NCBI RefSeq assembly: GCF_024129855.1 | Contig: NZ_JAMXXC010000018.1 | Coordinates: forward strand, 1 to 40,000 | Direction of reading: 5' to 3' | DNA length: 40,000 bases | Source of the DNA: Acinetobacter lwoffii | GTDB taxonomy: Bacteria; Pseudomonadota; Gammaproteobacteria; Pseudomonadales; Moraxellaceae | Shown: piece after piece, positions 4,346-40,000 of the stretch | Numbering within the stretch: the stretch's first letter is position 1 | Layout: every line of letters begins with the position of its first letter | The notes under the pieces: model-generated | Databases searched by the model: none | The model's input: only the letters and a program-made list of their open reading frames with translations | What the model was told of the DNA's origin: nothing | Made by a program: the position numbers and the translations under genes

Positions 4346-4480
4346 GGCGCTGTAGTTCTTTCTCTTATCATTATTATTTATTGTATTATTATGGCGTTTT
4401 ACGCTTATTATTATTTTCAAACATCCTGTTGAAAAATCATCTTCCTTGTGTGGTAGATTTTGCCATATTCCCACCAGACA
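4346..4480 (-). ncRNA. Candidate small RNA (module A) ending at the 4315-4345 terminator
   Basis: The segment has no convincing ORF and ends in a strong terminator. It shares the motifs ATAATAATG and AACTACAG with module B. The 5' end is undetermined. Confidence 0.25.
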
Positions 4481-4667
4481 ACTAGAGGTATTTGCCTCAT
4501 TTTGCTGTAAGCCATTTCGTACATCACAGGGTGAAAATTTGCATAATGTTACACAGCTCTCGTTTTATTTAACGCTATTTACTTAAGTTTACTGGCTAGA
4601 GTTGAAAATTATTGCTAAGAAATTAGGATAAAAATCCAGCAAGCTTCCTATAAAAAAATCAGGATAT

Positions 4668-4704
4668 AAAAAAGCCTTGTAGTCTCTCCCAAAACTACAA
4701 GGCT
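4668..4704 (-). terminator. Rho-independent terminator (minus strand only)
   Basis: AGCCTTGTAGT (4673-4683) pairs with ACTACAAGGCT (4694-4704) around a 10-nt loop. Six Ts follow on the minus strand and there is no T-run on the plus strand. It lies about 180 nt downstream of the recD stop. Confidence 0.7.
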
Positions 4705-4885
4705 TAGCGGCTGTAAGTTTCCTCTTTCACTTACTTCACTGTAAGTTCGCTGTCTACCGACATTATTATTATCATTATGCGATTATGCTCAACTTTCCGT
4801 GTTGAGTTATTTTGTAGAACAAATCTTCTCAAAAACCGAGCAAAAGCTCTATGCGTCAATTTCCTGAATCCTTGTAAGCTTTTAC
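4705..4885 (-). ncRNA. Candidate recD 3'UTR-derived or independent small RNA (module B)
   Basis: A 180-nt non-coding stretch runs between the recD stop and the 4668-4704 terminator. It contains a CTCAAC/GTTGAG hairpin, CATAAT/ATAATAATG repeats and two copies of AACTTACAG. Confidence 0.2.
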
Positions 4886-9700: not shown

Positions 9701-10863
9701 GTGGTTTCACCCTGCTGCTGCAAGGTTTGTGGCAAACGGGTCTGCACACTTTGAATAATATGAAATTCCAGATAGGTCGTAAGCTGTTGCAGCTGCTCAT
9801 CCAGATACTGTTTGACCTCACACAGCGCATCAATTGCCACGATCAGACTATGTTGCAAAATCAGCTGCTGCTCTGCATCCGGACAGCTTTTGTTAAAGAC
9901 CTGAGTGGTCGGCTGGAAATCGGTTTTCTTGCGGCGCAAATGGCACAGATTCAGTAAAATAGGCTGCAATTCAGCATCAAAGAAACTCATTGTTCCTTGA
10001 GTTTTCAGGGCTGCGCTCCAGGTCATAAAGTTTTCACAAATTTCGGTTAACTTGGTCAAAAAACTCTTGTGAAAATACTTCGGACTTTCCTGACAATAAC
10101 GCCGCATGACGGCAAGATCATGGTCCTGAATATTCACTAATTGACTGATGCAGGCTTCCAATTTGTTCAGGTCACATTCAGCCGGTTCGATCTTCCGAAA
10201 ATGCTGCTTGCTGAAATTCAGGGCATCACGCACCAGCCCGGTATAATGCTCCACCGGTTTCAGCAGATTCTGGACATACAGATGATTGACCATATATTGT
10301 GGCTGTTGCTGAATCCAGTCACGCAGCACATCATGAATCAGCTGCTGGATATACAGATCCTGATCTTCGGTCAGTTCTGCACGTTCAATCTTGCCACTTT
10401 CAAATGCAAATTCACGTAACAGTTTCTGGCTAAAGCTGTCCAGGGTGCCGACAAACAGTTCGTCCAGCTGGTTCAGCACCAGACGTAAACGGCGACGGGC
10501 ATAATCCAGCCGTGAACCATAATCTTTCAGCACCTGCTGAAATAAAGGATCGGTTTCATTCTGGATTTTTGCTGTGATTTCAACTGAATTGAGCTGCTGA
10601 TGACGCTGGATATAAGCCAGCGTTTCCTCGACGCGAAGCCGTACCCGGTTTTTCAGTTCGGCCGTGGCCTTACGGGTAAATGTCGTCGCAATCACCTGAT
10701 GCGGATAATACTGGTCCAGAAAAATCCGCACCATCAGGCTGGAGAGCGTATAGGTCTTGCCGGTTCCTGCAGAGGCTTCAATCCAGTGCAGGCCACGGAA
10801 TTTCATGTCTTGAATCGGATTGGTGGAAATGGCTTTTTGCATCTGCTGCTTTAATAAAGTCAT
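6739..10863 (-). CDS. recB: Exodeoxyribonuclease V beta subunit (RecB helicase-nuclease)
   Basis: 1374 aa. Helicase motifs: ASAGTGKT, LVDEFQDT, GDPKQAIYGFRGGD, NHRS, TIHASKGLEF and VALTRA. The C-terminal PD-(D/E)xK nuclease motif is GSIDLVY...IADYKSN. It is longer than E. coli RecB (1180 aa). Confidence 0.95.
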   Translation of the reverse strand: MTLLKQQMQKAISTNPIQDMKFRGLHWIEASAGTGKTYTLSSLMVRIFLDQYYPHQVIATTFTRKATAELKNRVRLRVEETLAYIQRHQQLNSVEITAKIQNETDPLFQQVLKDYGSRLDYARRRLRLVLNQLDELFVGTLDSFSQKLLREFAFESGKIERAELTEDQDLYIQQLIHDVLRDWIQQQPQYMVNHLYVQNLLKPVEHYTGLVRDALNFSKQHFRKIEPAECDLNKLEACISQLVNIQDHDLAVMRRYCQESPKYFHKSFLTKLTEICENFMTWSAALKTQGTMSFFDAELQPILLNLCHLRRKKTDFQPTTQVFNKSCPDAEQQLILQHSLIVAIDALCEVKQYLDEQLQQLTTYLEFHIIQSVQTRLPQTLQQQGETTFSQQIRTLAEALQGQQGQRFAQFVQARYPLILVDEFQDTNQDQDDLLAKIWRDANRVQSGCMIMVGDPKQAIYGFRGGDMLTYNKAHADVRHKQGREYTLMQNHRSVKPLVEVVDALFQRQMDFGEQVQYTLIQAGSRPHPDLVDMGRINPQPLRWIQLGESDLEADQVAWKIRALLNQSAQQQLYFQQQEHQQSLSADDIAVLGFGHFALEQVKQRLQRMGIPSYKESKQSVFASPIAQDVAAVLTAIMDPFNEAKVKRALLTRLLGFNLKKLIDLQSQSEGLSRYIADLDIIREMWFEKGFLTAWNYALNLFQVWTNLVASQSLDNERVVVNLRHLTEMLSQQSEYYQGAQKLYHWYLRQLQSPSGKDSEKERKLSGDHGVQLMTIHASKGLEFKVVFLLGADAAFDVNKGNLNFSLSAPEQDNILEQSRVIAVNHKNLHEQAILQNAARNAAENHRLWYVALTRASHRVYAMLQDQNAQSDSGLAFWRGQGNTIFEHALSLVEPPLSQEPPRLVEQSNHHQVDMRAQPLPERQFYPRTKTSFTALSQHQLHGHILQDDLVTAYEQPDSAADEIHFTGLEEQPAAVPLDWIRLNFPKGTVAGTFLHSIFEHIDFQDSSYWNLEIRRRFKNTAPQIWQELKEKFEQAFHIRSVLEQAFSLHYQAAVVNLRTLFQATAQADFKAEELRHSMQRVLSSLNYKLLTGIRLHDQSKAYRQQWQQLFHSAQQLDRSGLLEFLGQFQVYFDGLEDDSFIQFFEQEVAQLTRSASTESLNVDSIFQTAFDGLLDEITEDILLNLMHDWVHDILATPIQVDFALAQLEAKQYLSEFPFYLSLTDAPLQIRQIHQLFLGHDIVMSDFNEAKSARYLTGSIDLVYFDGQRYHIADYKSNFLGPDQQHYSAEAIQQNMSQSSYWLQAALYLVALHRYLSANMQGYSITQHLGGATYLYLRGMNGQVQQGAYHWQPSLEFIEKLDQILGYFEQKKSA

Positions 10864-10867
10864 ACGG

Positions 10868-13800
10868 CTATTTCACCCACTCCAGATGTTGATGAATCGG
10901 CGCATACAGGCCATGAGCAAAATCATGGCAGCAATTTTGCAAGGCCAGATCCGGATCCTGATCCTGCAAAATAAATTGCCAGTCTTGATGCAGCAGACTG
11001 GATTCATCCGAAGCCAAAGGTTTGGCACTCTCATAGCTGTTGTTCCATGCCTTTAGCAATTCCGGCATTTCCACAATAGTCATTTTGCCATGTTCATTCT
11101 CGGCCCACTGCCACTCTTTTTTCATCAGTAATTCTGCCGGCAAGACCAGCGGCTGCTGTTGACCAATTTCCCAGGCCGTTAACCAGAGCTTCAAATACTC
11201 ATGTGCCTTGCTCGAACTCAAGCCAGAAAACTTCAGGGTTTTATTACTGAAAATGACAATGCGCTCCAGTTCTGGTGAGCGTGCATCGTCATTCAAGTAA
11301 GCCAGCCATAGCAGATACTCCAGCCAGATCTGGGCACGGCGTTTTTCCGAGGCCGAAGAGGATTGCATACTCAGCCAGTAGCTGCTGTGTGGAACCTGAG
11401 GCACGTTTATATGAATGATCAGTTCAGGACTGAACTGCAGGGATTGTTGGGTGACTGGCGTCAGTTCTTTGCCCAACTGTAGCAAACGTTCTTGCAATAA
11501 CTGCTGTTCCTGCTGGCTGCCCAGCCAGGTGGCTTGCTGGGTTTTGCCCACCGGCAAACGGTCTAGCATCAGGTTTGGCTCAATCTCCTGCTCTTGTTGT
11601 AACAGGAAATCCCGCACCTGATACTGTTCCAGCTTGTTCAATAATAAGGGTTCCCGGGAACTCGGCAAATCGGCATAGCGAATCGTGGAAACCCCGACAC
11701 TTTTCAGGAATAGACGTGCCGGGAAAATCATATCGCGGATCCATTCATCACCTTTGAGTACCCGGATTTCTTTTTGTTCTAGTGCCGGATAATGTGCATT
11801 AATCCAGCTGCTGCGTTTGCCTTCGGCGCTGCGGATATATTCTGCCACTGCAAACCACTGATCCTGATAACGTGGTGTCTGCATATCTGCGAATCCGGCT
11901 GGATCAAAAGGCTGCAAGGGATGTACATGATAAAGCTGCTGGATATGTTGAGCGACCGATAGACCATGAATATCCACCATCGGATCGACTTCGGCATCCG
12001 GCTGTTCAGACTGGCAGATCAGCGCGATATGCTGAACCAGTTCCTGCAAGGCAGTGGATGGATCACGAGCCTCACCATCCTCCAGATCAAAGCCATTATA
12101 GAACAGCCATAGATTTTCCTGTGCCAGCAGCAAGGCATCCAGAAAGGCGCCCTGCTCGTCATCCAGACGGGAACGGTCACCGAGTTGCGGCTTCAGGCTG
12201 CGCATCAGGTCAAACGGAACCTGTTGATTACGGCTCGGAAATTTACCGCTATCCAGATTCAGCATCACCACCAGTTTATAAGGCAATGGCCGGATCTGAC
12301 CAATCTGGCTAAAAGTAATCTGTCCGGTCGGTTCGGCCTGATCCAGCTGCATCTCCAGGGTATTCTGAATTTCTTCCAGCACATAAGGCAGAGGCAGACT
12401 GAGTGCCACCAGTTCCTGACTGGCATGCGGATCATCCTGGTCATGATAATCGGCCAAGGTCAGCATCCGCATTTGCTTGTCGATAATCTCGGCAACGGTT
12501 TTGAGCGATTCCACGCCAGCATCACGGAACTCGTTCAGATCGGCGCGCAGATATTCCAGCCAGGTTTTGACTGGCGTGCGCTGTCCGGTTTCATGCAAAG
12601 TCAGCCAGTCACGGCGCTCTACCAGATCCTGATAAATCCGGATCAGGGTGGATATCAAGGGAAAATCACTGGTCAGAACCTTGGCATAACTCAAGGTGTC
12701 CTGAAACAGGGTATGTTCAGGAATCGCCAGACCCAACGCCAGACGGTCCAGCGCGAATTTAAAGCTAAACCGGTAATCCTCATCGCCTGCGCTCAGACTT
12801 TGCTGTAAATGCTGCTGGTCCAATCCACGCTTGAAGCCAGCATCTGTCAGCAATTGTAACATCCGCTCTACCTGACTATAGTCCAGACCATAATACTGCT
12901 GGGTCGCATTCAGGCTGAGCCAGTCGGCAAAGTCCTCAATACTGAAACGGCGCCGTACCCACTGAATCCGGCCCAGTACCGCGCGCCAGGCATTGCTGAC
13001 ATCCAGACGCGACACCCCGGCAATCTGGATCGGTAAATATAGGTTATCTTTTTGCAGGCGTTTGCTGCCGGTTTCGCGCTCACGCGGTGGTGGCGCAAAG
13101 ACACTGCGAATTGTTGGTTCGAGTTCTTTCAGACTTGGCGTCAACACCAGAATATCACTGGGCTGACGCGGCGCTTCTTCATTGCCTTGAGCCAGCCAGT
13201 GAATCAGTTGTTCTTTGAGAACTTCCAGCTGACGTAATGAAGAATGACAGACATGAATCTGTACCGAATCATCATCAGGGCTTAAAGCATATTGATGCTG
13301 CTCGGGCTCGAGCAAATACAGGATATCCGACTGGATTTTGGCCAGCAGCCTGTCCTGATATTCATCCACAAAGACATCGGCCCAGAGACCCTCTTCCCCC
13401 GAAGACAGTTTAGAGAGTAGAGAAAAATGATCCCGTGCCTGCTTGCCGAATCGGGTCAGGAGCGGATGCCGCGATTCCCGGTCTTCGGCATTAAAGTTCA
13501 GCTGCTTGATCCTGAAATCTTTTATTTCCGCATCATTCGGTTTACGTTGACGGGTTTTTTCAAAACGCTGAATAAAGCGCTCTTCCCGCTGCAAATCAAA
13601 TCTGGCTTTCCAGTCCGGATCGACACTGTCGGCCCAGTATTCCTGCGAGGGGTTGAAGTGAAAAATATAGATATCAATGTACTGGCCCAGACGGCGTAAA
13701 AAATCCAGCTGGCTCGGTGGCAATTCTAACAGGCTAAACACCACAATCTGTGCCGGCAGTCGTTTCAGAGCTTGGGCCCGGGTCTCTGCATTTTCCAGCC

Positions 13801-22280: not shown

Positions 22281-22340
22281 TTGGCCGTAGCTGCCCGATT
22301 ATTTGTATAATTGCTTTAATTTTGTGAACTGTTGAGATTT

Positions 22341-22658
22341 ATGCAGAAGTTTTTAGTTGTCCTGCAATACCTGTGTCTGGCCTTTGCCATTTATCTGATT
22401 TATAGCGTCAGCATGTCGCTGTATAGCCAGGATTTTGTCCTGATGGAACTGGTCGCTGATATCGGTACGATTCTGATTTGTATCGACCTGGCGGTGTTTT
22501 TATTTACCAGTAAAGGTAAGCCCGGCATTAGCATGGAAGAATATGCAAAAAGACTGGAACAGCCACCGTCTAAGCTGGTCTATGTGACACGAAAATTGGG
22601 GCATCTCGGTATTTTGCTGATTATCACCAGCTGGGTTGTGCCGATGATTAACTCATAA
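22341..22658 (+). CDS. Small integral membrane protein (hypothetical)
   Basis: About 105 aa with three hydrophobic helices. A strong terminator follows. Confidence 0.5.
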   Translation: MQKFLVVLQYLCLAFAIYLIYSVSMSLYSQDFVLMELVADIGTILICIDLAVFLFTSKGKPGISMEEYAKRLEQPPSKLVYVTRKLGHLGILLIITSWVVPMINS

Positions 22659-22666
22659 ATATCCAA

Positions 22667-22695
22667 TAAAAAACCTCCCAATTGGGAGGTTTTTT
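22667..22695. terminator. Bidirectional terminator (left boundary of the AT-rich islet)
   Basis: The perfect palindrome CCTCCCAATTGGGAGG (22674-22689) is flanked by A7 upstream and T6 downstream. It serves the convergent + gene (stop 22658) and the minus-strand rexB-like gene (stop 22699). Confidence 0.8.
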
Positions 22696-22698
22696 ACT

Positions 22699-23145
22699 TT
22701 AGGGTTTTCTAAGAACTTTCATACCCGTCCATAAACTAGATAGCGCTTGTATTAAACTAGCGATAAAGAAAAACATTACAAATCGTATCAACCACTTTGT
22801 TACTTCAATATTACTAATAGTTGCTATTAGTAAAACTGAAGTAACACACACTAAAATCAAATATAAAATAGCTAAAAACCAACTACTTAAATAATACTCA
22901 CCAAAATCTTGAAGATAGTTTTTTGCAGCAATTTTTTCTAATCCATACACAATAGTAGAAATAGTCGCTACTATTCCAAACATTGCTATAGAATATGCAA
23001 GTAAAGCAATTCCTAAATCTTTCTTATTAATATAAAAGGAAAATATAAAATAGTTTTTAAGTACATAGTAATAAAATACTTGGCTAACTATTCCAATGAT
23101 CAAGGGAATCGAATTCAAGCAAAGAATGATTTTCCAGTTGTTCAT
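22699..23145 (-). CDS. rexB: RexB-like four-TM membrane protein (candidate ion-channel effector of a Rex-type exclusion system)
   Basis: 148 aa against 144 aa for lambda RexB. Four hydrophobic helices fall at about residues 4-29, 44-69, 87-110 and 118-139. KDLGIALLAYSIAMFGIVATISTIVYG aligns with lambda RexB DGLGATLSSYAGTMIAILIAALTFLIG (recalled) at a +2 offset. The SD-like TAGGGGGT lies 7 nt upstream of the ATG. Confidence 0.7.
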   Translation of the reverse strand: MNNWKIILCLNSIPLIIGIVSQVFYYYVLKNYFIFSFYINKKDLGIALLAYSIAMFGIVATISTIVYGLEKIAAKNYLQDFGEYYLSSWFLAILYLILVCVTSVLLIATISNIEVTKWLIRFVMFFFIASLIQALSSLWTGMKVLRKP

Positions 23146-24010
23146 AATTCAACCCCCTATAATCTCTGATCCGTTCCTGAATAACAGAATTAGTGTCTAG
23201 ACTAACTTGCATATGTTCAGCAATTGACATATCAGACTCAGCATCACAACCTTCTGACAATAAACCATCTTTTGAATAATAAAAATTTGTGAGTTGATCT
23301 TCTAAATGAGCTCGAGCACGTAAAGTAACTTTTTCTAATTCATTATCAGGTACTCGATCTATAGATTTTAGAATTGTTTTGTTAATTGATTTACCTCTCT
23401 TTGGTTTAATAATTACTTCTAATCCTGCAATATCTTCAAAATCAATTACTTTACTTTCACCGTTAAAGGCATTCAATAAATTTTTAACAAAAGGCCCATA
23501 AGCTACTTGAAATGACGTTCTACCAATAAAATCTAGTTTGGCAGCTTCTGCCCTACTAATTTGCGTTTTAACAGGAATGAGTTTAAAAGATAAATCCCTA
23601 ATTTTCATCCTCTTCAGCAATTGCTCAATGTAAAATACAAAAGCTGTAGGAGTAGGTGATAAAACTCTCGAACCAAATGCAAAAATTGGAAATTTATCAT
23701 TCATATATATGTAAGATGCAAACCCCATACTTTCATTTGCTGCCAATTTATTAGTTAAATCTGTAGCAGAAAATACACTTCGTTTTTCTTCAACAGCTTT
23801 TACAATTTCCTGATTTTTAGTTTGTACAAATAGATAAAAGTCCTTTTTTAATTTTATTAAGTAAAGCTTTTCATCATTATATGTAATATCTGTTACATAG
23901 GGATAGGCAATTTTATTAGTGCTATTTTCAATAATTTTTGAAATATTGAAATCATAAACATCAGCTGTATTAACATTATGAAAATTATACATGTAATAAT
24001 TTATACGCAT
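23084..24010 (-). CDS. rexA: RexA-like protein (candidate sensor/activator of a Rex-type exclusion system)
   Basis: 308 aa against 279 aa for lambda RexA. Motifs are collinear with recalled lambda RexA: ESMGFASY/ESLGFPSF, DFIGRTSFQV/HFIGRTTVKV, LEVIIKPKRGKSINK/LDIVIKPKFKRDIKK, TLRARAHLEDQLTNFYYSKDGLLS/SLRAKDEAGDILTEHYLSEKGHLS and IAEHM/IAEEM. Offsets rise smoothly from +7 to +12. Confidence 0.75.
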   Translation of the reverse strand: MRINYYMYNFHNVNTADVYDFNISKIIENSTNKIAYPYVTDITYNDEKLYLIKLKKDFYLFVQTKNQEIVKAVEEKRSVFSATDLTNKLAANESMGFASYIYMNDKFPIFAFGSRVLSPTPTAFVFYIEQLLKRMKIRDLSFKLIPVKTQISRAEAAKLDFIGRTSFQVAYGPFVKNLLNAFNGESKVIDFEDIAGLEVIIKPKRGKSINKTILKSIDRVPDNELEKVTLRARAHLEDQLTNFYYSKDGLLSEGCDAESDMSIAEHMQVSLDTNSVIQERIRDYRGLNYEQLENHSLLEFDSLDHWNS

Positions 24011-24025
24011 TTTACCCCCTAGAAA

Positions 24026-24056
24026 TATAAAAAGAGCCTTGCGGCTCCTTTTATAT
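24026..24056 (-). terminator. tex terminator (right boundary of the islet)
   Basis: The minus strand reads AAAAGGAGCC-GCAA-GGCTCTTTTT followed by ATATTT. The loop is a GNRA-type tetraloop. The G.U pair forms only in the minus-strand RNA. It sits 30 nt after the tex stop and 16 nt before the rexA-like ATG. Confidence 0.65.
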
Positions 24057-24085
24057 TAGATTAATTTTCCAACAAACTCATCAGT

Positions 24086-26440
24086 TTATTTAGAACCTTT
24101 AATCCCTGCTTGCAATAACAATGCACCCAAACCACCAATTTTTTGCTCTTGTGGTTTAGCCGCTTGAGGTTTCTTACCCTGAGGGCGATCACCTTGCGGA
24201 CGTCCTTGCTGTGGACGTTTACCCTGAGGCTTACGTTCACCACGTGGCTCATTGTTCTCGCGACGTGGCTGACGTGGTGCTTTCGCCGGCGCTTCAGAAC
24301 CTTCAGGACGCATCGACAGATTCACGCGGTTACGTTCAGCATCCACATTCAAAACACGGACTTGTACGATTTGACCCGGTTTCACCACTTTATGCGGATC
24401 AGCGACGAATTCATTGGCAAGTTCAGAAATATGTACCAAACCATCTTGATGCACGCCCACATCGACAAATGCACCGAAGTTAGTCACGTTAGTGACTACA
24501 CCTTCCAGTTGCATGCCTTCAGACAATTGCGCAACTTCAGTAATGTCATCACGGAATTTAGCAGTGCGGAATTCTGGACGCGGGTCACGGCCCGGTTTTT
24601 CCAGTTCAGCCAATACGTCTTGAATCGTCGGCAGACCAAATTTCTCGTCTGCAAATTCTTCTGCATTCACTTGGCGAATGATTTCAGTATTGCCAATGAT
24701 GTCTTTTACAGTCGTTGCTTTTGCTTCAACAATTTTGCTCACCAAAGCATATGACTCAGGGTGAACTGCAGACGCATCCAGTGGTTCTGTACCATCTTGA
24801 ATACGCAAGAAGCCCGCAGCCTGCTCAAAAGTACGCTCGCCTAAACGTGGTACTTTTTTCAAAGACTGACGATTGTCAAAACGACCATTTTCCTTACGGA
24901 ATTCCACAATTTGCTGTGCGATCGATTTATTCAGACCCGCGATATAACCCAGAATTGCTGCTGATGCAGTATTTACATCCACACCCACTGAGTTCACACA
25001 GTCTTCAACGACCGCTTCAAGGGTTTTCGCCAGACCGGTCTGGTTCACGTCATGTTGATACTGACCCACACCAATCGATTTCGGATCGATTTTCACCAGT
25101 TCTGCTAGTGGATCTTGTAAACGGCGTGCAATCGATACCGCACCACGAATAGATACATCTAGTTCAGGCAGTTCCTGTGAAGCTAGTTCAGATGCTGAAT
25201 ACACCGATGCACCTGCTTCAGATACAGAAACACGCGTCATTTTCAGATCACTGTTCGCAGCCATCATTTCAGCAACTAAAGCTTCAGTTTCACGGCTTGC
25301 AGTACCATTACCAATCGCGATCAGGTCAACATTGAACTCGCGGCATAAACGCGCCAGCTCGGCCAGTGAACCTTCTTTATCGTCTTTTGGTGCAAATGGA
25401 TAAATCGTGCTGTATGCAAGAACATCACCAGACTCGTTCACTACCGCCAGTTTCACACCGGTACGGATACCCGGGTCCACGCCCAAAGTGGTACGTGCGC
25501 CTGCAGGTGCAGAAAGCAGTAAATGACGCAGGTTTTCAGCAAAGACGTTCATCGCTTCTGTTTCAGCAGCCAGACGTTTTTCAGTCAGCAATGAATGTTC
25601 GATCGTTGGACGAACTTTACCGAGCCAAAATAGTTTTGCAGTTTGCTTCAAGAAATCCTGACGCGCTTGTGGCTGAACAGTTTCAAGATTGTATTCAGTT
25701 TCAATACGCGCCAATGGAGCATCATCTTCGCCATCAACTTTCAGGCCTAAAACGTTTTCCTGACGGCCACGCAGCATCGCCAATAAACGATGTGAAGGCA
25801 CTTTGTTCAAGTTTTCAGAGAAATCGAAATAATCACGGAATTTTTTACCGACTTCTTTTTTCTCATCACTTGCAACTAAACTTTTCAGCACGGCAGTTTT
25901 TGCAAATGTCGCTTTAAGTTCAGTGGTCAGTGCGATATTTTGTGCCCAGTCATCAATCAGGATGTGCTGGATCGCATCAAGCTGGCTTTCAGTATCTGGA
26001 TAATCTTCATGGCTAAAGCCCGCCAAAGCTTCAGCTGGATCAACAGCTTCATTAAAGATTTTTTCAGCAATCGGGCCCAGACCAGCTTCTTTGGCCTTAA
26101 ATGATTTACTGGTACGTTTTGGACGGTACGGCGCGTAAATTTCTTCTAATGCATTTTTGGTTTCGGCGGCATTCACACGCGCCAATAAATCATCAGATAA
26201 TTTATCTTGTTCTTTGAGTGATTCAATCACCTTTTCACGGCGCTCATACAAATCACGCAAGTATGATAAACGCGTATCGAGTTGACGTAGTTGCGTATCG
26301 TCTAAGCCTTGCGTTACTTCTTTACGGTAACGTGCAATAAAAGGAACACTGGCACCTTCATCAATAAGCTTGATGGCAGCCTCAACTTGATTTGGACGTA
26401 CGGCAAGTTCTTTTGCCAACTGCTGAACTAAGTCAGTCAT
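24086..26440 (-). CDS. tex: Transcription accessory protein Tex (S1 RNA-binding domain protein)
   Basis: About 784 aa. The N-terminal Tex/HTH region (IARYRKEVTQGLDD), YqgF-like and HhH regions are present, plus a C-terminal S1 domain (GMQLEGVVTNVTNFGAFVDVGVHQDGLVHISEL) and a basic P/Q/K-rich tail. The ATG at 26440 is preferred to the GTG at 26455. Confidence 0.92.
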   Translation of the reverse strand: MTDLVQQLAKELAVRPNQVEAAIKLIDEGASVPFIARYRKEVTQGLDDTQLRQLDTRLSYLRDLYERREKVIESLKEQDKLSDDLLARVNAAETKNALEEIYAPYRPKRTSKSFKAKEAGLGPIAEKIFNEAVDPAEALAGFSHEDYPDTESQLDAIQHILIDDWAQNIALTTELKATFAKTAVLKSLVASDEKKEVGKKFRDYFDFSENLNKVPSHRLLAMLRGRQENVLGLKVDGEDDAPLARIETEYNLETVQPQARQDFLKQTAKLFWLGKVRPTIEHSLLTEKRLAAETEAMNVFAENLRHLLLSAPAGARTTLGVDPGIRTGVKLAVVNESGDVLAYSTIYPFAPKDDKEGSLAELARLCREFNVDLIAIGNGTASRETEALVAEMMAANSDLKMTRVSVSEAGASVYSASELASQELPELDVSIRGAVSIARRLQDPLAELVKIDPKSIGVGQYQHDVNQTGLAKTLEAVVEDCVNSVGVDVNTASAAILGYIAGLNKSIAQQIVEFRKENGRFDNRQSLKKVPRLGERTFEQAAGFLRIQDGTEPLDASAVHPESYALVSKIVEAKATTVKDIIGNTEIIRQVNAEEFADEKFGLPTIQDVLAELEKPGRDPRPEFRTAKFRDDITEVAQLSEGMQLEGVVTNVTNFGAFVDVGVHQDGLVHISELANEFVADPHKVVKPGQIVQVRVLNVDAERNRVNLSMRPEGSEAPAKAPRQPRRENNEPRGERKPQGKRPQQGRPQGDRPQGKKPQAAKPQEQKIGGLGALLLQAGIKGSK

Positions 26441-26775
26441 CGTGTTTGATCCCACAAGGATAAGTACTAAATGGCATGATTATAAAGACCGGGTCCATAA
26501 AATCCACCATTGTTTTTATTAATTTATCTCATCTTTGTATTATGAAGTGCCACAGTTTTCAGCTTTTCCCGATAAAGTTTGTATGAACTTTGCTTTTTAT
26601 TCAGCTTAAAATCATATTTTTTGCTCATTTAGATGTATATATTTGGTATCTATGTCTTGATTTTAACTGCAATATTTGGTGCTTTAGAGCATAGTCAATT
26701 AATATCAATGAATCGTATACTCAAAGCCTATTTGATTTTTGTTTATGATGACAATAAAGAATAAAGGAGCATCTC

Positions 26776-31976: not shown

Positions 31977-32177
31977 TTAATCAACCAGAAAACTAATTTT
32001 TAAATTGACACGATATTCCGTGATTTTATTTTCTTTAATGACAACCTTCTGTTCATTGATCCAAGCACCTTGTACATTTTTGACCGTTTCTGTGACTTTT
32101 TGAATCCCCGTTTGAATCGCATCTTCAAAGCTTTTATTGCTGCTTGAATTGACTTCTACCACTTTTGCAATTGCCAT
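31977..32177 (-). CDS. Dodecin family flavin-binding protein
   Basis: 66 aa from the ATG at 32177 (GAGAG upstream): MAIAKVVEVNSSSNKSFEDAIQTGIQKVTETVKNVQGAWINEQKVVIKENKITEYRVNLKISF. The first 49 codons of the track ORF are probably not translated. Confidence 0.75.
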   Translation of the reverse strand: MAIAKVVEVNSSSNKSFEDAIQTGIQKVTETVKNVQGAWINEQKVVIKENKITEYRVNLKISFLVD

Positions 32178-32547
32178 AATAAAACTCTCAGCATGAAAAT
32201 GAATGGAATTCCATCTTAGTCCATTCTCAGAAGATTGCAGCAGCCCGTAAACAAGCGATAGCAAAAACTTACATGGATTGAACAAAGCTCGAAATTCAAT
32301 CTTAAATTGGCAGATCAAAAACACATCGCCGCTTGTTTTGGCACTTGATCAAGTCCAGATTCTCATCACTAAAGTAAAGCATAAAGTCCTGTAAAATCAT
32401 AAAAATCCAACTAGAGAAAATATACTAATTTATTGTTTTATAGAGTAATTTATTTAAAATTTACTGCCTGAATTTGCCAAATCTATCATTTTCTATTAAG
32501 TCTTATTTGCTATTATTTCACCCGAATTAAGTTTAAATATTCTCCTC

Positions 32548-32565
32548 TGTTCAAATTATTGAACA
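32548..32565. promoter_or_regulatory. Inverted repeat TGTTCAA-ATTA-TTGAACA (candidate operator)
   Basis: 7-bp perfect arms with a 4-bp spacer, lying 22 nt upstream of the small-ORF ATG at 32588. Confidence 0.3.
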
Positions 32566-32587
32566 CTCTGATATTAAAAGTCATCCT

Positions 32588-32755
32588 ATGAATGCTCTTA
32601 AATTTGCTTTCGCAGCAACCGTTATGGCTTTTTCTGTTCAAGCGTCTGCACAAATGGCGCAAGTGGTTCATCTGCCAGACTTTCCAGCGACTAAAGCACC
32701 TGCTGAAACAGTAAATGCAGATGCTGCGACTGTAGTAACTGAAAAAACAGCTTAA
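32588..32755 (+). CDS. Small secreted protein (55 aa; below the ORF-track cut-off)
   Basis: Hand translation gives MNALKFAFAATVMAFSVQASA|QMAQVVHLPDFPATKAPAETVNADAATVVTEKTA*. The signal peptide is classical, with an A-x-A site. A strong + strand terminator follows at 32778-32807, but the SD is weak. Confidence 0.5.
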   Translation: MNALKFAFAATVMAFSVQASAQMAQVVHLPDFPATKAPAETVNADAATVVTEKTA

Positions 32756-32777
32756 TGCAAAGCTGTTTTTCATTAAA

Positions 32778-32807
32778 ACAGGCTGATTGATTCAGCCTGT
32801 TCTTTTT
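32778..32807 (+). terminator. Terminator after the small secreted-protein ORF
   Basis: ACAGGCTGA (32778-86) pairs with TCAGCCTGT (32792-800), followed by TCTTTTT. Confidence 0.75.
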
Positions 32808-33008
32808 GATCATATTGAACACATTCAGTGTGAAAGATGCACGACTCTAAAAAATATCGACTATTTCCCGCTCTAGTTTTTTCTATTGATTTTTATCACT
32901 TTTAATTAAAAAATTTGTTTATAAAACACTCAAAATAGATCACTATTTTATGTGATCTCTGCTTATAATTGCAGCAATATAAATAGATTAATGATAAGAA
33001 AATTTTTT

Positions 33009-33199: not shown

Positions 33200-34600
33200 A
33201 TGAATGCTTTAGAAAAAGCACACTTAATTAAAGAACTACATGGACTGGCGCAGCAACTGGAGCATAAAGTCCTGCCTTTCTATGAAATTGCCCGTTCTAA
33301 AAAAAGGATACGCGATATTTTTAATCTGTGTGATGAGCCTATTTTCAAAACCCAGATTTCAGCATTTAAAGCCCGCACTCAGCCTGAACTTGTTGCTTAC
33401 CAATTTTCTGCTGACACGTCTTATCATCTGAGCTTTCGTGGCTATTTCACCGAAATCTTGGCGCTGGAACAAGCATTGTCTGCCCATCCGGATTCAGGCT
33501 GGGCAGTTTTACATCATCCTGAACGTGGCTGGCAAATCTGGCTGATGCCCGCTCCCCAAGCTCCTGCCCTGCACAGCCAATGGGCTGAATTGCAACACTG
33601 CTATATCTGGCTGTTGCAACAACAGCAACGATTTTCTTGCCTGAAACAGGATCCACCCTTGATCGTTCCAGCCTTATCCTTACACGAAGCTGAAACCAGC
33701 TGCAATTCTATGGAAACAACCAAATATCATCGGGGACGGCCGCGCGCAAGAATTCATGCACTAGAATTAAATCGCTTAGATGAGTCAACCAATCAAATAC
33801 TAACTGAACCCAAGGAACTAAATCCTCCACTAAAAGCTGAAACGACAATTCAGCAAGAACAGATCACAGTCTCCGAATTGATTCAATTCCCTGTACAGAT
33901 CCAACTGGGCAAACTAAACGCTCATGTACACCCTTTAGGTTTAGAAGAAACTAATATCCAGCGGCTCTGTGCTTTAGAACTAGAATCCGATGTCGAACAA
34001 CACCCTGTTTATCTGGATATTGTCTTATATTATGCGGCAGAAGATAACTGGCAGGCACGTCAGGTTTATTTGGTTGAGCAATTGAATCTGCAAGGTCAGT
34101 TTGTTAAATATCTGATGCTCTTAGGGGTACCGAGTCAGTTGCAGGCTCACTATTGTATTCAACATTGGCTGACCCATCATCAACATCAGGCTGCTGCGAT
34201 TAAATCACTGGCGTGGTCTGTTATAAGCACCAGGTTCATGCAACTCGAGTTTTTTTCAACGGCTTACTTGCAGCAGGCTGAAACAGTCTGGACACAGCCA
34301 GATTACCATCCATTTATACCCGCACAGTCCATTCAAAAGCAGAAATTTATCTCGTTTAAAGAAGCTGCTGCGGATTTTTCTACCCCAGTGCTTTTGCTAC
34401 AGGAACATCAAAAAATCCGAGTGATTCATGGTGAAAAACGCATCTCTCTCGCAGAGGATGAGCTGGCCTATCCATACATCTTGCTGCAACGCGACAAACA
34501 GCTAAATTGGCAGAATATTCACAATATTATTTTAACAATGCCACAACCCATTCGGGTATTAGAGCTTTATCGGGAAATTCAGGCTCAAATGATTGAATAA
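33200..34600 (+). CDS. Hypothetical protein, 466 aa, Q/H-rich, with an AT-hook-like RGRP motif
   Basis: A long clean ORF with genome-typical GC (48% on line 33241-33300). I recognise no family. KYHRGRPRARIH sits at residues 175-186. Confidence 0.55.
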   Translation: MNALEKAHLIKELHGLAQQLEHKVLPFYEIARSKKRIRDIFNLCDEPIFKTQISAFKARTQPELVAYQFSADTSYHLSFRGYFTEILALEQALSAHPDSGWAVLHHPERGWQIWLMPAPQAPALHSQWAELQHCYIWLLQQQQRFSCLKQDPPLIVPALSLHEAETSCNSMETTKYHRGRPRARIHALELNRLDESTNQILTEPKELNPPLKAETTIQQEQITVSELIQFPVQIQLGKLNAHVHPLGLEETNIQRLCALELESDVEQHPVYLDIVLYYAAEDNWQARQVYLVEQLNLQGQFVKYLMLLGVPSQLQAHYCIQHWLTHHQHQAAAIKSLAWSVISTRFMQLEFFSTAYLQQAETVWTQPDYHPFIPAQSIQKQKFISFKEAAADFSTPVLLLQEHQKIRVIHGEKRISLAEDELAYPYILLQRDKQLNWQNIHNIILTMPQPIRVLELYREIQAQMIE

Positions 34601-34692: not shown

Positions 34693-35802
34693 ATGCAAAT
34701 AAACAGGATTACTCAAATTTTACTGCTCTCTCTGGGCTTAGGAATGAGTGGTAGCATGTCTTGGGCAAATTCAGTCACAGCTGCTCCTGCCAGTCCAACA
34801 AATACAGAGCCAAGCCGATCAGGCTTGCTGGATCAGATTCCACGTTTGATCGATGCAACACCCACCGTTTTGCCGGAGCAATCAAGTGTCGCCATCGTTC
34901 CATCCACGCTAGAGACAGAAAATTATTCATGGGCGGATCAAAAGCAGAAAGGCCTCCGCGAATGGGCCGATCGTACTGCGCATAAAATTGATAACTGGTT
35001 TGGTGAAACCGATCCAGATCAGCCAGCTGCAGCCACATTACGGATCATTTTAGATAATCGCTGGGATGAATATGAAGGCTATGAGATTAAACCCCGAATC
35101 CGCGGCAAGATCAAACTTCCAACCTTGGAACAAAAGCTGAGTGTGGTTTTTGGTGATGACAGTCTGGACAATGAATTAGACAGCAATGTCGCGATTACCA
35201 ATGAAAATCCTGCCACTTCCGGAGATAAACGTCTGGATACTAAACGTGCACGTGAAGATAACAGCTCTTTTGCCTTACGTTGGTCTGAATGGTCAGATCG
35301 TATTCCTTTCGAAACCGATCTGGATCTGGGCTTACGTTCTGGCGATGATATTTATCTGCGTGTCAAAGCCAGTAAGGACTGGACACTAGAAAATGACTAC
35401 TCTTTTCATGCCGAACAGATTTATCGCTATGGCATTCAAAGTGAAAACTATTTACGGACCAACTTGGAACTAATCCACGCCCGTCCCAATCAGGCCTTTT
35501 TCTCCAATCAGCTCAGTCTGACTTATGCAGATGATCAAGACGACGATCTGACCTGGGACAACTACACCTTTAGGCAACATCAGTTTTTTCAGGACAACCG
35601 TTTTAGTTACGGCATTTATACCGGTGGTTATCTGAACGATAAGGATCTGCGTCTTAATCGCTGGGGCCCCTATGTGTCGTGGAGACAACCTTTTTTACGT
35701 GAATGGTTTTTTGTCCAGACCGACCTGAACTATTTGAATGATCATCGCGAAGATCGTGATCACTATGTCGGAGCTTTGGTGCGTTTAGAAGCGTTATTTT
35801 AA
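34693..35802 (+). CDS. Putative outer-membrane beta-barrel protein (hypothetical)
   Basis: The signal peptide is MQINRITQILLLSLGLGMSGSMSWA. An S/P/T-rich linker follows, and the C-terminal half has alternating amphipathic strands. The C-terminus ...LVRLEALF ends in an aromatic residue, which is an OMP-like signature. Confidence 0.45.
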   Translation: MQINRITQILLLSLGLGMSGSMSWANSVTAAPASPTNTEPSRSGLLDQIPRLIDATPTVLPEQSSVAIVPSTLETENYSWADQKQKGLREWADRTAHKIDNWFGETDPDQPAAATLRIILDNRWDEYEGYEIKPRIRGKIKLPTLEQKLSVVFGDDSLDNELDSNVAITNENPATSGDKRLDTKRAREDNSSFALRWSEWSDRIPFETDLDLGLRSGDDIYLRVKASKDWTLENDYSFHAEQIYRYGIQSENYLRTNLELIHARPNQAFFSNQLSLTYADDQDDDLTWDNYTFRQHQFFQDNRFSYGIYTGGYLNDKDLRLNRWGPYVSWRQPFLREWFFVQTDLNYLNDHREDRDHYVGALVRLEALF

Positions 35803-38950: not shown

Positions 38951-39541
38951 TTAGAACTTGTAGCTATAACCGATCGTGTAAACCCAAGGATCAATATCGA
39001 AATCAAATTTAGTATTATTGGCATCATCTAAAGTCACTTCAGGACTCAAATCTGCATAGCGCACGTCAGCAAATACTCCCCAGTTTTTGGCATCTGCTGG
39101 CTGATAATTAAAGCCGATCTGACCTGCTACACCAAATGCTTCTTTCACATCTTTAGCCAGACCTTCTTCATCCCAAGCAATAAAAGCTGTGCCACCTACA
39201 CCAATATATGGCGTAAAGCGTGTTGCGTTTTTAAAGTGATATTTAGCAGTAATTGTGGGTGGCAGATGTTTGATCTTAGCCACCTTACCCACACCTTGAA
39301 GAGAGATGTCGTGATTGAATGGTGTGGCTAATAAAAGTTCTGCAGAGATATTGTCATTAAAAAAGTATTCAACCGATGGCGTAAAACCATATTCTTGATC
39401 CGCTTCTACGACTAAACCTGGTGCAATTTCAGTGTCACTTGATGGTGCTAAAGAACTGGCACCAACTTTCACCTGCCATTGACCTGCCATCGCAGATGCA
39501 GAAAGACCCATTAATGCAATTAGAGCGACTTGCTTTAACAT
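38951..39541 (-). CDS. ompW: Outer membrane protein OmpW
   Basis: About 196 aa from the ATG at 39541 (MLKQVALIALMGLSASAMA|GQWQVKVG...). It has the OmpW-family beta-barrel pattern and ends ...YTIGYSYKF. Confidence 0.88.
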   Translation of the reverse strand: MLKQVALIALMGLSASAMAGQWQVKVGASSLAPSSDTEIAPGLVVEADQEYGFTPSVEYFFNDNISAELLLATPFNHDISLQGVGKVAKIKHLPPTITAKYHFKNATRFTPYIGVGGTAFIAWDEEGLAKDVKEAFGVAGQIGFNYQPADAKNWGVFADVRYADLSPEVTLDDANNTKFDFDIDPWVYTIGYSYKF

Positions 39542-39834
39542 TTTAAAATACCCCACAGGAAGAATAATTATTGAGAAAATAAATCTTAATTAATAATAAA
39601 CACGAGGGAAAATAATATGCAATAAGGATTATAAAACTAATTTTTAATTATTATTTAATGTATTGATTTTAATAAATATTTATTTTAAATTGACCAGATT
39701 GGTTGGTTTTAAATACTAAGCAAATTAATCAGATAAATATGGTTTTATTCAGAGTAAAATAATCAGGTTTATATTAATTTCTATTTAAACATATATTTTA
39801 AATACATCTTATTATTTATTTTAAATCCAGATAA

Positions 39835-39862
39835 ATCTGCTCCAATAGATATCGGAGCAGAT
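39835..39862 (-). terminator. Possible terminator of the partial gene at the window end
   Basis: ATCTGCTCC (39835-43) pairs with GGAGCAGAT (39854-62) around a 10-nt loop. Only a weak T-rich tail follows on the minus strand. Confidence 0.35.
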
Positions 39863-39872
39863 TGAAATTGAC

Positions 39873-40000
39873 TTACAGAACCATGGCTGCAATCCAGCCA
39901 AAAATCATCAACGGAATATTAAAGTGAATGAAGGTTGGAATCACACTATCCTTCATATGATCATGCTGACCATCCATATTCAGACCAGAAGTTGGGCCTA
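39873..40000 (-). CDS. 3' end of a membrane (transporter-like) protein, partial
   Basis: Hand translation of the minus strand gives ...[41 protein letters not shown] with the stop at 39873-39875. The C-terminus is hydrophobic. I could not assign a family. Confidence 0.35.

What the first reader, a model, noticed from the sequence alone, without database searches (positions are those of the whole stretch)
22699..24010. Prophage-independent RexA/RexB-like two-gene module: candidate abortive-infection / phage-exclusion system
Two minus-strand genes encode a 308-aa soluble protein and a 148-aa protein with four hydrophobic helices. Lambda RexA (279 aa) and RexB (144 aa, 4 TM) have the same order and near-identical sizes. 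Compared with the lambda sequences as I recall them, the large protein matches collinearly along its whole length: ESMGF/ESLGF, FIGRT/FIGRT, VIIKPK/IVIKPK, LRAR/LRAK, YYSKDGLLS/YLSEKGHLS and IAEHM/IAEEM, with offsets drifting smoothly from +7 to +12. The small protein matches RexB around TM2 (DLGIALLAYSIAMFGIVATISTIVYG vs GLGATLSSYAGTMIAILIAALTFLIG). In lambda, rexAB is co-transcribed with cI inside the immunity region. Here I saw no repressor, cro, integrase or any other phage gene anywhere in the 40 kb, and the neighbours are tex and core metabolic genes. A free-standing chromosomal Rex-type module in this lineage would be a defence cassette whose trigger and regulation must differ from the lambda paradigm.
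Basis: partly seen in the sequence, partly recalled or inferred. Interest (0 to 1): 0.85.

Follow-up and report, generated by a model that had tools for sequence, protein, structure and literature searches.

The report
Free-standing RexAB phage-exclusion cassette in Acinetobacter
A 1.4-kb, low-GC two-gene insert just downstream of the housekeeping gene tex encodes true relatives of phage lambda's RexA/RexB abortive-infection proteins with no prophage around them; it is a well-supported but unsurprising new member of a known defence family.

Summary
ORF 23084-24010(-) is a RexA-family protein: Pfam PF15969 171.7 bits (cutoff 25), 29% identity to lambda RexA, and a predicted fold that best matches the lambda RexA crystal structure 8TWQ. 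ORF 22699-23145(-) is a four-helix membrane protein. Its link to lambda RexB is remote but real: it misses Pfam RexB, hits PADLOC RexB at 4e-6, and scores hhalign 96% with clean shuffle controls. The pair lies in a 1,390-bp, 29%-GC insert (22696-24085) that replaces 21 bp of the spacer found in a near-identical strain without it. The 40 kb holds no phage gene, integrase or tRNA. The same tex-rexA-rexB arrangement occurs in at least three other Acinetobacter lineages, with purifying selection and a recombination tract covering exactly rexA. Related cassettes sit on small Acinetobacter plasmids and next to restriction-modification systems, and none is found in sequenced phages. The most likely function is RexA-sensed, RexB-executed membrane depolarisation that aborts infection; this is inferred by homology and not shown. 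Non-prophage Rex homologues are already mentioned in the literature and existing HMMs detect this one, so novelty is modest. How the cassette is transcribed and what triggers it are unknown.

The parts
22696..24085 (-). Inserted cassette (1,390 bp, 29% GC against 44.5% for the window). It replaces the 21-bp spacer TAAATTAAAGATATCTGAAAA of the empty site.
   Evidence: Flanks are 99.1% and 98.6% identical to empty-site contig L016, and homology breaks at 22695 and 24086. No terminal repeats or target-site duplication were found.
23084..24010 (-). rexA-like gene, 308 aa: cytoplasmic RexA/RdgC-fold protein, the putative infection sensor and DNA binder. The last ~30 aa are a clade-specific tail ending in a near-invariant Trp306 that lambda RexA lacks.
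   Evidence: Pfam PF15969 171.7 bits; PADLOC RexA 5.9e-42; PHROG 12654; 8TWQ 2.2e-16; AlphaFold model pLDDT 75 with best PDB match 8TWQ, then RdgC. R231/R233 align with lambda R219/K221 (PMC11077077). The tail is seen. dN/dS is 0.09-0.13.
22699..23145 (-). rexB-like gene, 148 aa: four-helix inner-membrane protein, the putative depolarising effector.
   Evidence: PADLOC RexB 4e-6. All 11 partner proteins of diverse RexA genes hit PADLOC RexB. hhalign against the lambda RexB family gives 96.3%, E 1.8e-9, and reversed or shuffled controls give 0.4% or less. Four hydrophobic segments and four helices in the AlphaFold model. dN/dS is 0.06-0.11. Pfam RexB PF15968 does not hit.
23084..23145 (-). 62-nt overlap of the rexA 3' end with the rexB 5' end. 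The rexB Shine-Dalgarno AGGGGG lies at 23158-23153, which suggests translational coupling.
   Evidence: An overlap is also present in the A. pittii, plasmid, Desulfuromonadaceae, Rifleibacterium and Methylovulum loci. The two Shine-Dalgarno contexts are near-duplicates (repeat D8).
24011..24085 (-). 75-bp leader carried by the cassette between the tex stop codon and the rexA start codon. It contains a conserved A/T-rich block with a -10-like TAATAT (24058-24053), a 15-bp hairpin, and the rexA Shine-Dalgarno AGGGGG (24020-24015).
   Evidence: the leader is conserved in four lineages. No canonical sigma-70 site was found on this strand.
24024..24057 (-). Terminator-like hairpin (15-bp stem, GCAA loop, followed by a U-run). 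It replaces the native tex terminator and lies immediately before the rexA ribosome-binding site.
   Evidence: Folding gives -19 kcal/mol, z = -4.6. It is inverted repeat I6. Compensatory changes keep it in L022 (GAGTC/GACTC, -21.1 kcal/mol).
22665..22698 (.). Pre-existing bidirectional intrinsic terminator of the tex / 105-aa-gene convergent pair. It is retained and now ends the rexB transcript 3 nt after the rexB stop codon.
   Evidence: -21.4 kcal/mol. The identical sequence is present in empty-site contigs L016 and L017.
24086..26455 (-). tex (transcription accessory protein), the conserved upstream same-strand neighbour in all four Acinetobacter lineages. It is not part of the cassette.
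   Evidence: Pfam Tex domains; synteny.

Best explanation
This is a horizontally exchanged, prophage-independent member of the RexAB abortive-infection family in an Acinetobacter chromosome (probably A. schindleri).

Shown:
- rexA encodes a RexA/RdgC-fold protein that keeps the two basic residues lambda RexA needs for DNA binding.
- rexB encodes a four-helix membrane protein remotely homologous to lambda RexB.
- The genes overlap by 62 nt and are under purifying selection.
- The pair, with a 75-bp leader, is a 1.39-kb low-GC insert at the 3' end of tex. A near-identical strain lacks it. It is present at the same site in other Acinetobacter species, and one recombination tract has swapped rexA alone.

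Inferred by homology with lambda Rex and P. putida RexABpp:
- During phage infection RexA is activated, possibly by a phage protein or a replication or recombination DNA-protein intermediate.
- Activated RexA engages RexB, which permeabilises or depolarises the inner membrane. ATP falls, growth stops, and the infection aborts.

Inferred from anatomy:
- Expression does not depend on a phage repressor promoter.
- Transcripts must either read through the conserved hairpin downstream of tex or start at a weak promoter whose -10 lies in the 5' arm of that hairpin.
- Either route would give low constitutive levels, with the RexA:RexB ratio set by translational coupling.
For: - RexA membership.
- RexB homology. 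Topology.
- Conserved two-gene architecture across phyla.
- Insert boundaries and empty site.
- No phage genes or tRNA.
- Same site in A. amyesii, A. towneri and a fourth lineage.
- Purifying selection and the rexA-only recombination tract (dS 0.146 against 1.08 for tex and 1.46 for rexB).
- No relative in Acinetobacter phages, but relatives on nine Acinetobacter plasmids.
- Neighbouring restriction-modification systems in other loci.
- Mechanism of characterised relatives: PMC12894663 and PMC11077077.
Against: - No experiment exists for this clade, so defence, depolarisation and the trigger are all inferred.
- RexB misses the curated Pfam RexB model, and its sequence family is tiny (7 hits among 1.84 billion representatives).
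- The RexB AlphaFold model has low confidence (pLDDT 59).
- In lambda, DNA binding by RexA does not correlate simply with exclusion (PMC11077077).
- The Butters phage system shows that Rex-like pairs can have reversed roles, with RexA as effector and RexB as sequestrator (PMC12894663).
- No promoter was identified.
Confidence: 0.75

Rival explanations
1. The cassette is the last remnant of a decayed prophage (a 'grounded' moron) and not an independently mobile cassette.
For: Characterised Rex systems are all prophage-borne (PMC12894663), and the census finds RexAB mostly on prophages. The low GC marks foreign origin.
Against: The difference from the empty site is a clean 1,390-bp against 21-bp replacement, with no att-like repeats, integrase, tRNA or other phage gene. 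The same minimal two-gene unit sits at the same site in four lineages, on small plasmids, and beside restriction-modification systems. No sequenced phage carries this clade.
Confidence: 0.07
2. The pair has a non-defence cellular role. RexA might act as an RdgC-like DNA-binding or recombination modulator. RexB might act as a ClpXP/ClpAP inhibitor or modulator of energy metabolism, for example stabilising antitoxins or plasmids. Any phage exclusion would then be a side effect.
For: RexA shares the RdgC fold. Lambda RexB inhibits Clp proteolysis and both proteins interact with NADH dehydrogenase, and Adams et al. openly question whether exclusion is the true function. Orphan RexA genes without RexB exist in Acinetobacter core regions. 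Cassettes occur on small plasmids.
Against: The cassette is strain-variable, has low GC, shows allele mosaicism, and co-localises with restriction-modification systems in other genomes. That is the signature of accessory defence cargo, not of a cellular function. In every tested RexA-plus-4TM pair both genes gave phage defence (PMC12894663; Sucellos in 10.1101/2024.07.02.601686).
Confidence: 0.1
3. It is a Rex-like system with reversed logic, as in mycobacteriophage Butters. The soluble RexA-like protein would be the toxic effector, and the membrane protein would sequester it until infection.
For: This is described for Butters gp30/gp31 (PMC12894663). The clade-specific conserved C-terminal Trp tail of RexA, encoded in the overlap with rexB, could be a docking element. 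Orphan RexA genes persist on their own.
Against: Sequence and fold are closer to lambda RexA than to the actinophage proteins. In lambda, P. putida, Sbash and CarolAnn, RexB is the effector. Orphan RexA genes retained in core regions argue that RexA alone is not toxic.
Confidence: 0.08

Closest known systems
Bacteriophage lambda RexA/RexB (Pfam PF15969/PF15968; the 'Rex' system of PADLOC and DefenseFinder; RexA structure PDB 8TWQ)
   Same: Same gene order and strand. Sizes are nearly the same (308/148 aa against 279/144 aa). RexA is homologous along its whole length (29% identity; fold match E 4.9e-15), and the DNA-contact residues R219/K221 are conserved. RexB has four collinear hydrophobic helices and profile-level homology.
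   Different: It is not in a prophage immunity region, so there is no cI, PRM or cro. The genes overlap by 62 nt, whereas in lambda they are separated by 15 nt. RexA has an extra ~30-aa C-terminal tail with a conserved Trp. RexB falls outside Pfam RexB. The cassette sits behind tex, preceded by a terminator-like hairpin.
Pseudomonas putida prophage P1 RexABpp (PP_5643/PP_5644; PMC12894663)
   Same: It is a RexA-fold DNA-binding protein paired with a 4-TM membrane effector whose homology to lambda RexB is hard to detect by sequence. Defence needs both genes. RexA overexpression triggers RexB-dependent membrane damage and growth arrest, which gives the best mechanistic template.
   Different: RexABpp is in a cryptic prophage downstream of a CI-like repressor. 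Its RexA is detectable only by HHpred, whereas the window protein passes Pfam directly.
Sucellos (SclA/SclB), a RexAB-like cassette from the Vibrio cholerae chromosomal integron (10.1101/2024.07.02.601686)
   Same: It is a two-gene Rex-like module tested outside a prophage, and both genes are required for defence. This is a precedent for Rex-type modules as free-standing cargo.
   Different: Sucellos resembles RexAB only structurally and does not match the Pfam domain. It is carried as an integron cassette, and elsewhere it is mostly found in prophages. The window cassette has no attC site or integron context.
Actinobacteriophage Rex-like pairs (Sbash gp30/31, CarolAnn gp44/43, Butters gp30/31)
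   Same: Each pairs a soluble protein with a membrane protein and excludes heterotypic phages. The RexA-like proteins dimerise and bind DNA (PMC11077077).
   Different: They are prophage-encoded next to repressors and have no sequence similarity detectable here. Butters has the effector and sequestrator roles reversed (PMC12894663).
RdgC (recombination-associated DNA-binding protein; PDB 2OWL)
   Same: It is the second-best structural match of the RexA model (Foldseek E 7e-4), as published for lambda RexA.
   Different: It has no membrane partner, is a housekeeping gene, shares 8% identity, and is not a defence protein.

Membership tests
RexAB (lambda-type Rex abortive-infection system) | Large protein belongs to the RexA family (Pfam PF15969 above the gathering score) | tested here: met
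   171.7 bits against a cutoff of 25, E 2.4e-50, covering profile positions 1-234 of 235. PADLOC RexA 5.9e-42.
RexAB (lambda-type Rex abortive-infection system) | RexA two-domain fold as in crystal structure 8TWQ | tested here: met
   The AlphaFold model (pLDDT 75) has 8TWQ as its best PDB hit: E 4.9e-15, probability 1.00, TM 0.46-0.50. The high rmsd is consistent with a different domain orientation. RdgC comes next.
RexAB (lambda-type Rex abortive-infection system) | Basic residues required for lambda RexA DNA binding and exclusion (R219, K221) | tested here: met
   They align with R231 and R233. The positions are K or R in all 17 aligned homologues. The residue roles come from PMC11077077.
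RexAB (lambda-type Rex abortive-infection system) | Small protein belongs to the curated RexB family (Pfam PF15968) | tested here: not met
   There is no hit at E <= 1. The lambda RexB control scores 305 bits, and other non-lambda partners also fail.
RexAB (lambda-type Rex abortive-infection system) | Small protein is homologous to RexB at profile level | tested here: met
   PADLOC RexB 4e-6 over 113 of 148 residues, and 11 of 11 partner proteins hit. hhalign gives 96.3%, E 1.8e-9 over 129 columns. Reversed and column-shuffled controls give probability 0.4% or less.
RexAB (lambda-type Rex abortive-infection system) | RexB is a ~145-aa protein with four transmembrane helices | tested here: met
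   Kyte-Doolittle segments at 6-24, 44-67, 85-110 and 119-140 are collinear with lambda RexB. The AlphaFold model has helices at 4-32, 36-73, 77-107 and 113-146 (low pLDDT). No dedicated topology predictor was available.
RexAB (lambda-type Rex abortive-infection system) | rexA immediately upstream of rexB on the same strand | tested here: met
   The arrangement is conserved in all paired homologous loci examined.
RexAB (lambda-type Rex abortive-infection system) | Located in a prophage immunity region and co-transcribed with the cI repressor | tested here: not met
   There is no repressor, cro, integrase or other phage gene in 40 kb. The cassette is a clean indel relative to the empty site. 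This feature describes the lambda context and not the protein family.
RexAB (lambda-type Rex abortive-infection system) | Excludes phages through RexA-activated, RexB-dependent membrane depolarisation and ATP loss | not testable with these tools
   This requires plating, membrane-potential and ATP assays.
RexAB (lambda-type Rex abortive-infection system) | RexA forms homodimers and binds DNA non-specifically | not tested
   No multimer prediction or biochemistry was available. Only conservation of the contact residues was checked.

The most novel reading that the evidence does not exclude
Acinetobacter may carry a distinct, non-phage lineage of Rex modules that moves by homologous recombination among a tex-adjacent chromosomal slot, small plasmids and defence islands. 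In this reading, the sensor gene rexA plus its leader is exchanged between species independently of the effector rexB. A clade-specific C-terminal Trp tail, encoded in the rexA/rexB overlap, would couple sensor to effector. Expression would be gated by a conserved terminator-like hairpin placed directly in front of the rexA ribosome-binding site. If true, this would show that exclusion, and not control of the lysogeny switch, is the selected function of Rex-type proteins. It would also give a repressor-free model for finding the long-unknown Rex trigger.
Probability: 0.3. Interest if true: 0.55.

Novelty: new member of a known kind. Interest (0 to 1): 0.35.

Why it matters
Lambda Rex is the oldest known abortive-infection system, yet its trigger and even its 'true' function are still debated. 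One reason is that RexA also tunes the lambda CI/Cro switch. A Rex pair that is kept under purifying selection with no prophage, repressor or switch to modulate argues that the pair has a selectable function of its own. That function is most plausibly exclusion. The cassette offers a simpler genetic background for finding the trigger, using Acinetobacter phages, escape mutants, and natural RexA allele swaps on a constant RexB. It also exposes a practical blind spot. The Pfam RexB model misses this whole RexB clade, so censuses that require Pfam RexA plus Pfam RexB will under-count non-prophage Rex systems and overstate their prophage association. Beyond that, the finding is an expected kind of result, because defence genes commonly move among prophages, plasmids and islands.

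Tried and rejected
- A genome-collection scan with the 17-sequence RexA alignment failed because it had no conserved block. A narrower alignment returned only six loci, so no broad census was possible.
- The look-up of the flanking ORF using its TTG start found nothing. The ATG start at 22341 gave the empty-site contigs.
- The exhaustive HMM search with the RexB profile did not reach lambda RexB and found only 7 relatives. Homology had to be established by profile-profile comparison with controls.
- The RexB AlphaFold model was too uncertain (pLDDT 59) for a fold search, so none was run.
- Searches for transposon-like terminal repeats or target-site duplications at the insert ends found nothing.
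- A sigma-70 consensus scan found no promoter on the coding strand. The -10-like TAATAT in the leader is my own reading and is weak, with a 3/6 -35 element.
- The tRNA scan was negative.
- Pairwise BLASTP of RexB against lambda RexB is not significant (E 1.5).
- The prophage-remnant, transposon and integron-cassette explanations were considered and rejected for lack of any associated gene or repeat.
Full report
**1. The observation.**
One is 23084-24010 (308 aa) and the other is 22699-23145 (148 aa), and they overlap by 62 nt. Each is preceded by an AGGGGG Shine-Dalgarno sequence in a near-duplicate context (repeat D8). GC falls to 29% across them, against 44.5% for the window. GC3 is 18-24%, against 36-44% in the neighbours. 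The lambda rex region was fetched as a reference: RexA is 279 aa and RexB 144 aa, in the same order. The recalled RexB TM2 pairing is the segment aligned by BLASTP and by hhalign.

**2. Identity of the large protein.**
It is a RexA-family protein by every test:
- Pfam PF15969: 171.7 bits against a gathering score of 25 (E 2.4e-50, full profile length).
- PADLOC RexA: 5.9e-42.
- PHROG 12654 'RexA-like exclusion protein': 3.6e-25.
- Lambda RexA crystal-structure sequence 8TWQ: 2.2e-16.
- BLASTP against lambda RexA: 29% identity, E 3e-21.

An AlphaFold model (pLDDT 75) has 8TWQ as its best PDB match (Foldseek E 4.9e-15). E. coli RdgC comes next (7e-4), which is the relationship published for lambda RexA (PMC11077077). 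Lambda residues R219 and K221 are needed for DNA binding and for T4rII exclusion (PMC11077077). They align with R231 and R233 and are K or R throughout the family alignment. One difference stands out. The window protein and its non-lambda relatives carry a C-terminal tail of about 30 aa with a near-invariant Trp (W306). Lambda RexA lacks this tail, and here it is encoded in the overlap with rexB.

**3. Identity of the small protein.**
This is the weaker link, so it was tested more carefully.
- *Negative or weak results.* Pairwise BLASTP against lambda RexB is not significant (24% identity, E 1.5). The curated Pfam RexB model (PF15968) does not hit it, although lambda RexB scores 305 bits as a control. 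An exhaustive HMM search with a profile of its close relatives found only 7 proteins among 1.84 billion cluster representatives. At the sequence level the clade is small and isolated.
- *Positive results.* The PADLOC RexB model hits it (4e-6 over 113 residues). I extracted the ORFs that follow and overlap rexA in diverse loci: A. pittii, A. tianfuensis, a Lysobacterales MAG, Desulfuromonadaceae, Rifleibacterium and Methylovulum. All encode proteins of about 140-160 aa with four hydrophobic segments, and all 11 hit PADLOC RexB (best 8.3e-17). A profile of these partners aligned with a profile of lambda-type RexB proteins gives hhalign probability 96.3% and E 1.8e-9 over 129 columns.
- *Controls.* Membrane proteins can produce composition-driven matches, so I ran controls. 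Reversed and column-shuffled profiles give probability 0.4% or less and scores of 14 or less, against 56-60 for the real pair. Swapping the halves of one profile moves the match with the half.
- *Topology.* Hydropathy gives four segments collinear with lambda RexB, with basic residues clustered in the same loops. A low-confidence AlphaFold model (pLDDT 59) shows four long helices.

I conclude that the small protein is a remote but genuine RexB homologue.

**4. Context: not in a prophage.**
The window's ORFs of 100 aa or more encode the following:
- a MerR-type regulator, PNPase, S15 and RecD/RecB/RecC;
- PPK2, DUF8198, UbiE and UbiB;
- a patatin-like protein, a 105-aa membrane protein and Tex;
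- an OmpR-type two-component pair, acetyl-CoA hydrolase, DsbA and dodecin;
- HtpG, an LprI-like protein and OmpW;
- a few ORFs with no hits.

None is a repressor, Cro, integrase or other recognisable phage gene, although the LprI-like ORF hits PHROGs of unknown function. None of the ORFs scanned against PADLOC hits a defence model, except housekeeping recD, which hits helicase models. There is no tRNA. The exact RexB sequence is annotated in Acinetobacter schindleri.

A look-up of the flanking 105-aa protein found contigs from near-identical strains in which that gene is followed by tex after only 58 bp (L016, L017). Alignment shows 99.1% and 98.6% identity in the flanks, with homology breaking at 22695 and at 24086. 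The cassette is therefore a 1,390-bp segment (22696-24085) that replaces a 21-bp spacer. No direct or inverted repeats mark its ends. The native bidirectional terminator (22665-22698) is retained and now lies 3 nt after the rexB stop codon.

**5. The same slot in other species, with signs of exchange.**
tex-rexA-rexB occurs in the same orientation in A. amyesii (L002), A. towneri (L018) and a fourth lineage (L022-L025). The gene beyond rexB differs between these loci (SulP/carbonic anhydrase, the 105-aa gene, or an AraC regulator).
- *Selection.* Both genes are under purifying selection: dN/dS is 0.09-0.13 for rexA, 0.06-0.11 for rexB and 0.05 for tex.
- *Divergence is uneven.* Against A. towneri, tex is 82% identical at the nucleotide level, rexA 95.8% and rexB 80%. 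In 100-nt bins, identity is 0.92-0.99 from 24100 to 23101, which is the leader plus rexA, and 0.70-0.87 on both sides, the low end being one low-complexity bin in the tex 3' end. Synonymous divergence tells the same story: dS is 0.146 for rexA, against 1.08 for tex and 1.46 for rexB. This is a recent inter-species recombination tract covering just the sensor gene.
- *Fourth lineage.* Against L022, Tex is 89% identical as protein but RexA only 46%.

This mix of strain-variable presence, low GC and mosaic alleles is typical of accessory defence genes. The mechanism of movement is inferred. With no recombinase or repeats, homologous recombination through conserved flanks in a naturally transformable genus is the simplest explanation.

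**6. Other homes of the clade.**
- *Phages.* tblastn against 50,697 phage records finds only 17 hits, all 31.5% identical or less. Sixteen are lambda or lambda-like records matching at 28.0-28.8%, and the best hit is an unannotated Salmonella phage. None comes from an Acinetobacter phage.
- *Plasmids.* Nine small Acinetobacter plasmids (8-30 kb) carry a full-length RexA at 32-33% identity. In the two inspected, an overlapping 158-aa partner with the same RexB-like sequence is absent from the plasmid gene tables.
- *Islands and chromosomes.* In A. pittii the pair sits in an AlpA/YqaJ/DUF932 island directly upstream of a type I restriction-modification system. Another homologue follows a BglII/MT-A70 restriction-modification pair, and another lies among housekeeping genes.
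- *Orphans.* An orphan RexA with no RexB is widespread at a core site next to gatCAB-mreBCD.

**7. Expression anatomy (partly inferred).**
The cassette brings a 75-bp leader (24011-24085) that is conserved in all four tex-site lineages. The leader contains a 15-bp hairpin followed by a U-run (24024-57; -19 kcal/mol, z = -4.6). This is about as stable as the native terminator (-21.4 kcal/mol). In L022 the hairpin is kept by compensatory changes. Its U-tract runs into the rexA Shine-Dalgarno sequence. No canonical sigma-70 promoter lies on this strand.

Any rexAB transcript must therefore take one of two routes. It could read through this hairpin from tex. Or it could start at a weak promoter whose conserved -10-like hexamer (TAATAT, 24058-24053; TAAAGT or TAAAAT in the other lineages) lies at the 5' edge of the stem, so that the nascent RNA lacks the full stem. 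That second route is my reading of the sequence and not a tool result. Either route would give low constitutive expression, which is what a potentially toxic pair requires. The 62-nt overlap would couple RexB translation to RexA. This is relevant because Rex activity in lambda and P. putida is sensitive to the RexA:RexB ratio (PMC12894663). None of this has been shown experimentally.

**8. Mechanism.**
By homology with lambda Rex and P. putida RexABpp, the most likely function is abortive infection or growth arrest. In that model, RexA is activated during infection and engages RexB, which depolarises or permeabilises the membrane. The steps shown here are homology, architecture, selection and mobility. 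The trigger, the RexA-RexB contact and the membrane effect are inferred. I considered three rivals and judge each unlikely, for the reasons given under rival explanations:
- a decayed-prophage remnant;
- a non-defence cellular role;
- Butters-type reversed logic.

**9. Comparison with what is known, and novelty.**
The system is a member of the RexAB family. It passes the RexA criteria outright and the RexB criteria at the remote-homology level. It fails only the narrow Pfam RexB model and the lambda-specific context feature. It differs from lambda in five ways: it has no repressor linkage, the genes overlap, RexA has a Trp tail, the RexB clade is divergent, and a hairpin-gated leader sits behind tex.

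The 'free-standing' aspect is real but not new in principle:
- Adams et al. note RexA homologues outside prophages.
- The DefenseFinder census says RexAB is mostly, not exclusively, on prophages, and it relied on Pfam models that would miss this RexB.
- A RexAB-like integron cassette (Sucellos) has been validated.
- According to Rosendahl et al., only five Rex-like systems have been characterised, all prophage-borne.

No characterised example of this clade turned up in the literature searches I ran. I classify the finding as a new member of a known kind and score interest at 0.35.

Noticed in passing
window 22798-22846 (rexB nt 300-348, codons 100-116): A 23-nt inverted repeat lies inside the rexB coding sequence. 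It folds at -24 kcal/mol, against a mean of -4.7 for 49-nt windows of the cassette. It is partly retained in the A. amyesii (-14.4) and A. towneri (-11.8) alleles and lost in the divergent L022 allele. Its function is unknown; it could be an internal RNA structure or processing site.
   Followed up: partly
L003-L006, gene at 10001-10945 (protein P0026, 314 aa): An orphan RexA ('putative exclusion protein', PADLOC RexA 2.6e-42) has no RexB ORF downstream. It sits between an EamA transporter and a NYN/OST-HTH gene, next to gatCAB-mreBCD, and occurs on many Acinetobacter contigs. Its retention at a core site suggests a RexB-independent role.
   Followed up: partly
window 33200-34600 and 34693-35802 (+), with a low-GC stretch at 32000-33000: Two adjacent ORFs (466 and 369 aa) have no Pfam, PHROG or PADLOC hit. 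They lie downstream of a 33%-GC segment that follows dodecin. This may be another accessory insert.
   Followed up: partly
window 4000-5000 and 39000-40000: Two further low-GC stretches (about 35%). One lies between rpsO and recD and the other beyond ompW. Neither was examined for small genes.
   Followed up: no
L007/L008 1-20933 (A. pittii): A mobile island has the order DUF932, YqaJ, Gp3-like, AlpA, methyltransferase, RexA, RexB, type I hsdMSR, Ymh. It is a Rex pair embedded in a defence island of a P4-like or satellite-like element.
   Followed up: partly
L026 5845-6321 and L027 4845-5321 (Acinetobacter plasmids p1_010005 and pAJ14): RexB-like 158-aa ORFs overlap the 3' end of the plasmid rexA genes but are missing from the plasmid gene tables. 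The neighbouring divergent operon encodes a MarR regulator, a hypothetical protein and a Ser/Thr phosphatase-like protein in both plasmids.
   Followed up: partly
window 22332-22658 (+): The 108-aa ORF listed with a TTG start is more likely a 105-aa protein starting at the ATG at 22341. Only that form is on record in public assemblies, and the A. amyesii orthologue is 104 aa. It is a small protein with three hydrophobic segments and unknown function, convergent with rexB.
   Followed up: yes
P0006 (214 aa), P0007 (178 aa), P0012 (214 aa): Some database entries for close RexA relatives are truncated or fused: 69% or 57% coverage at 97-100% identity, and one protein that matches both the RexA C-terminus and RexB. 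These could be pseudogenised copies in some strains or assembly artefacts.
   Followed up: no
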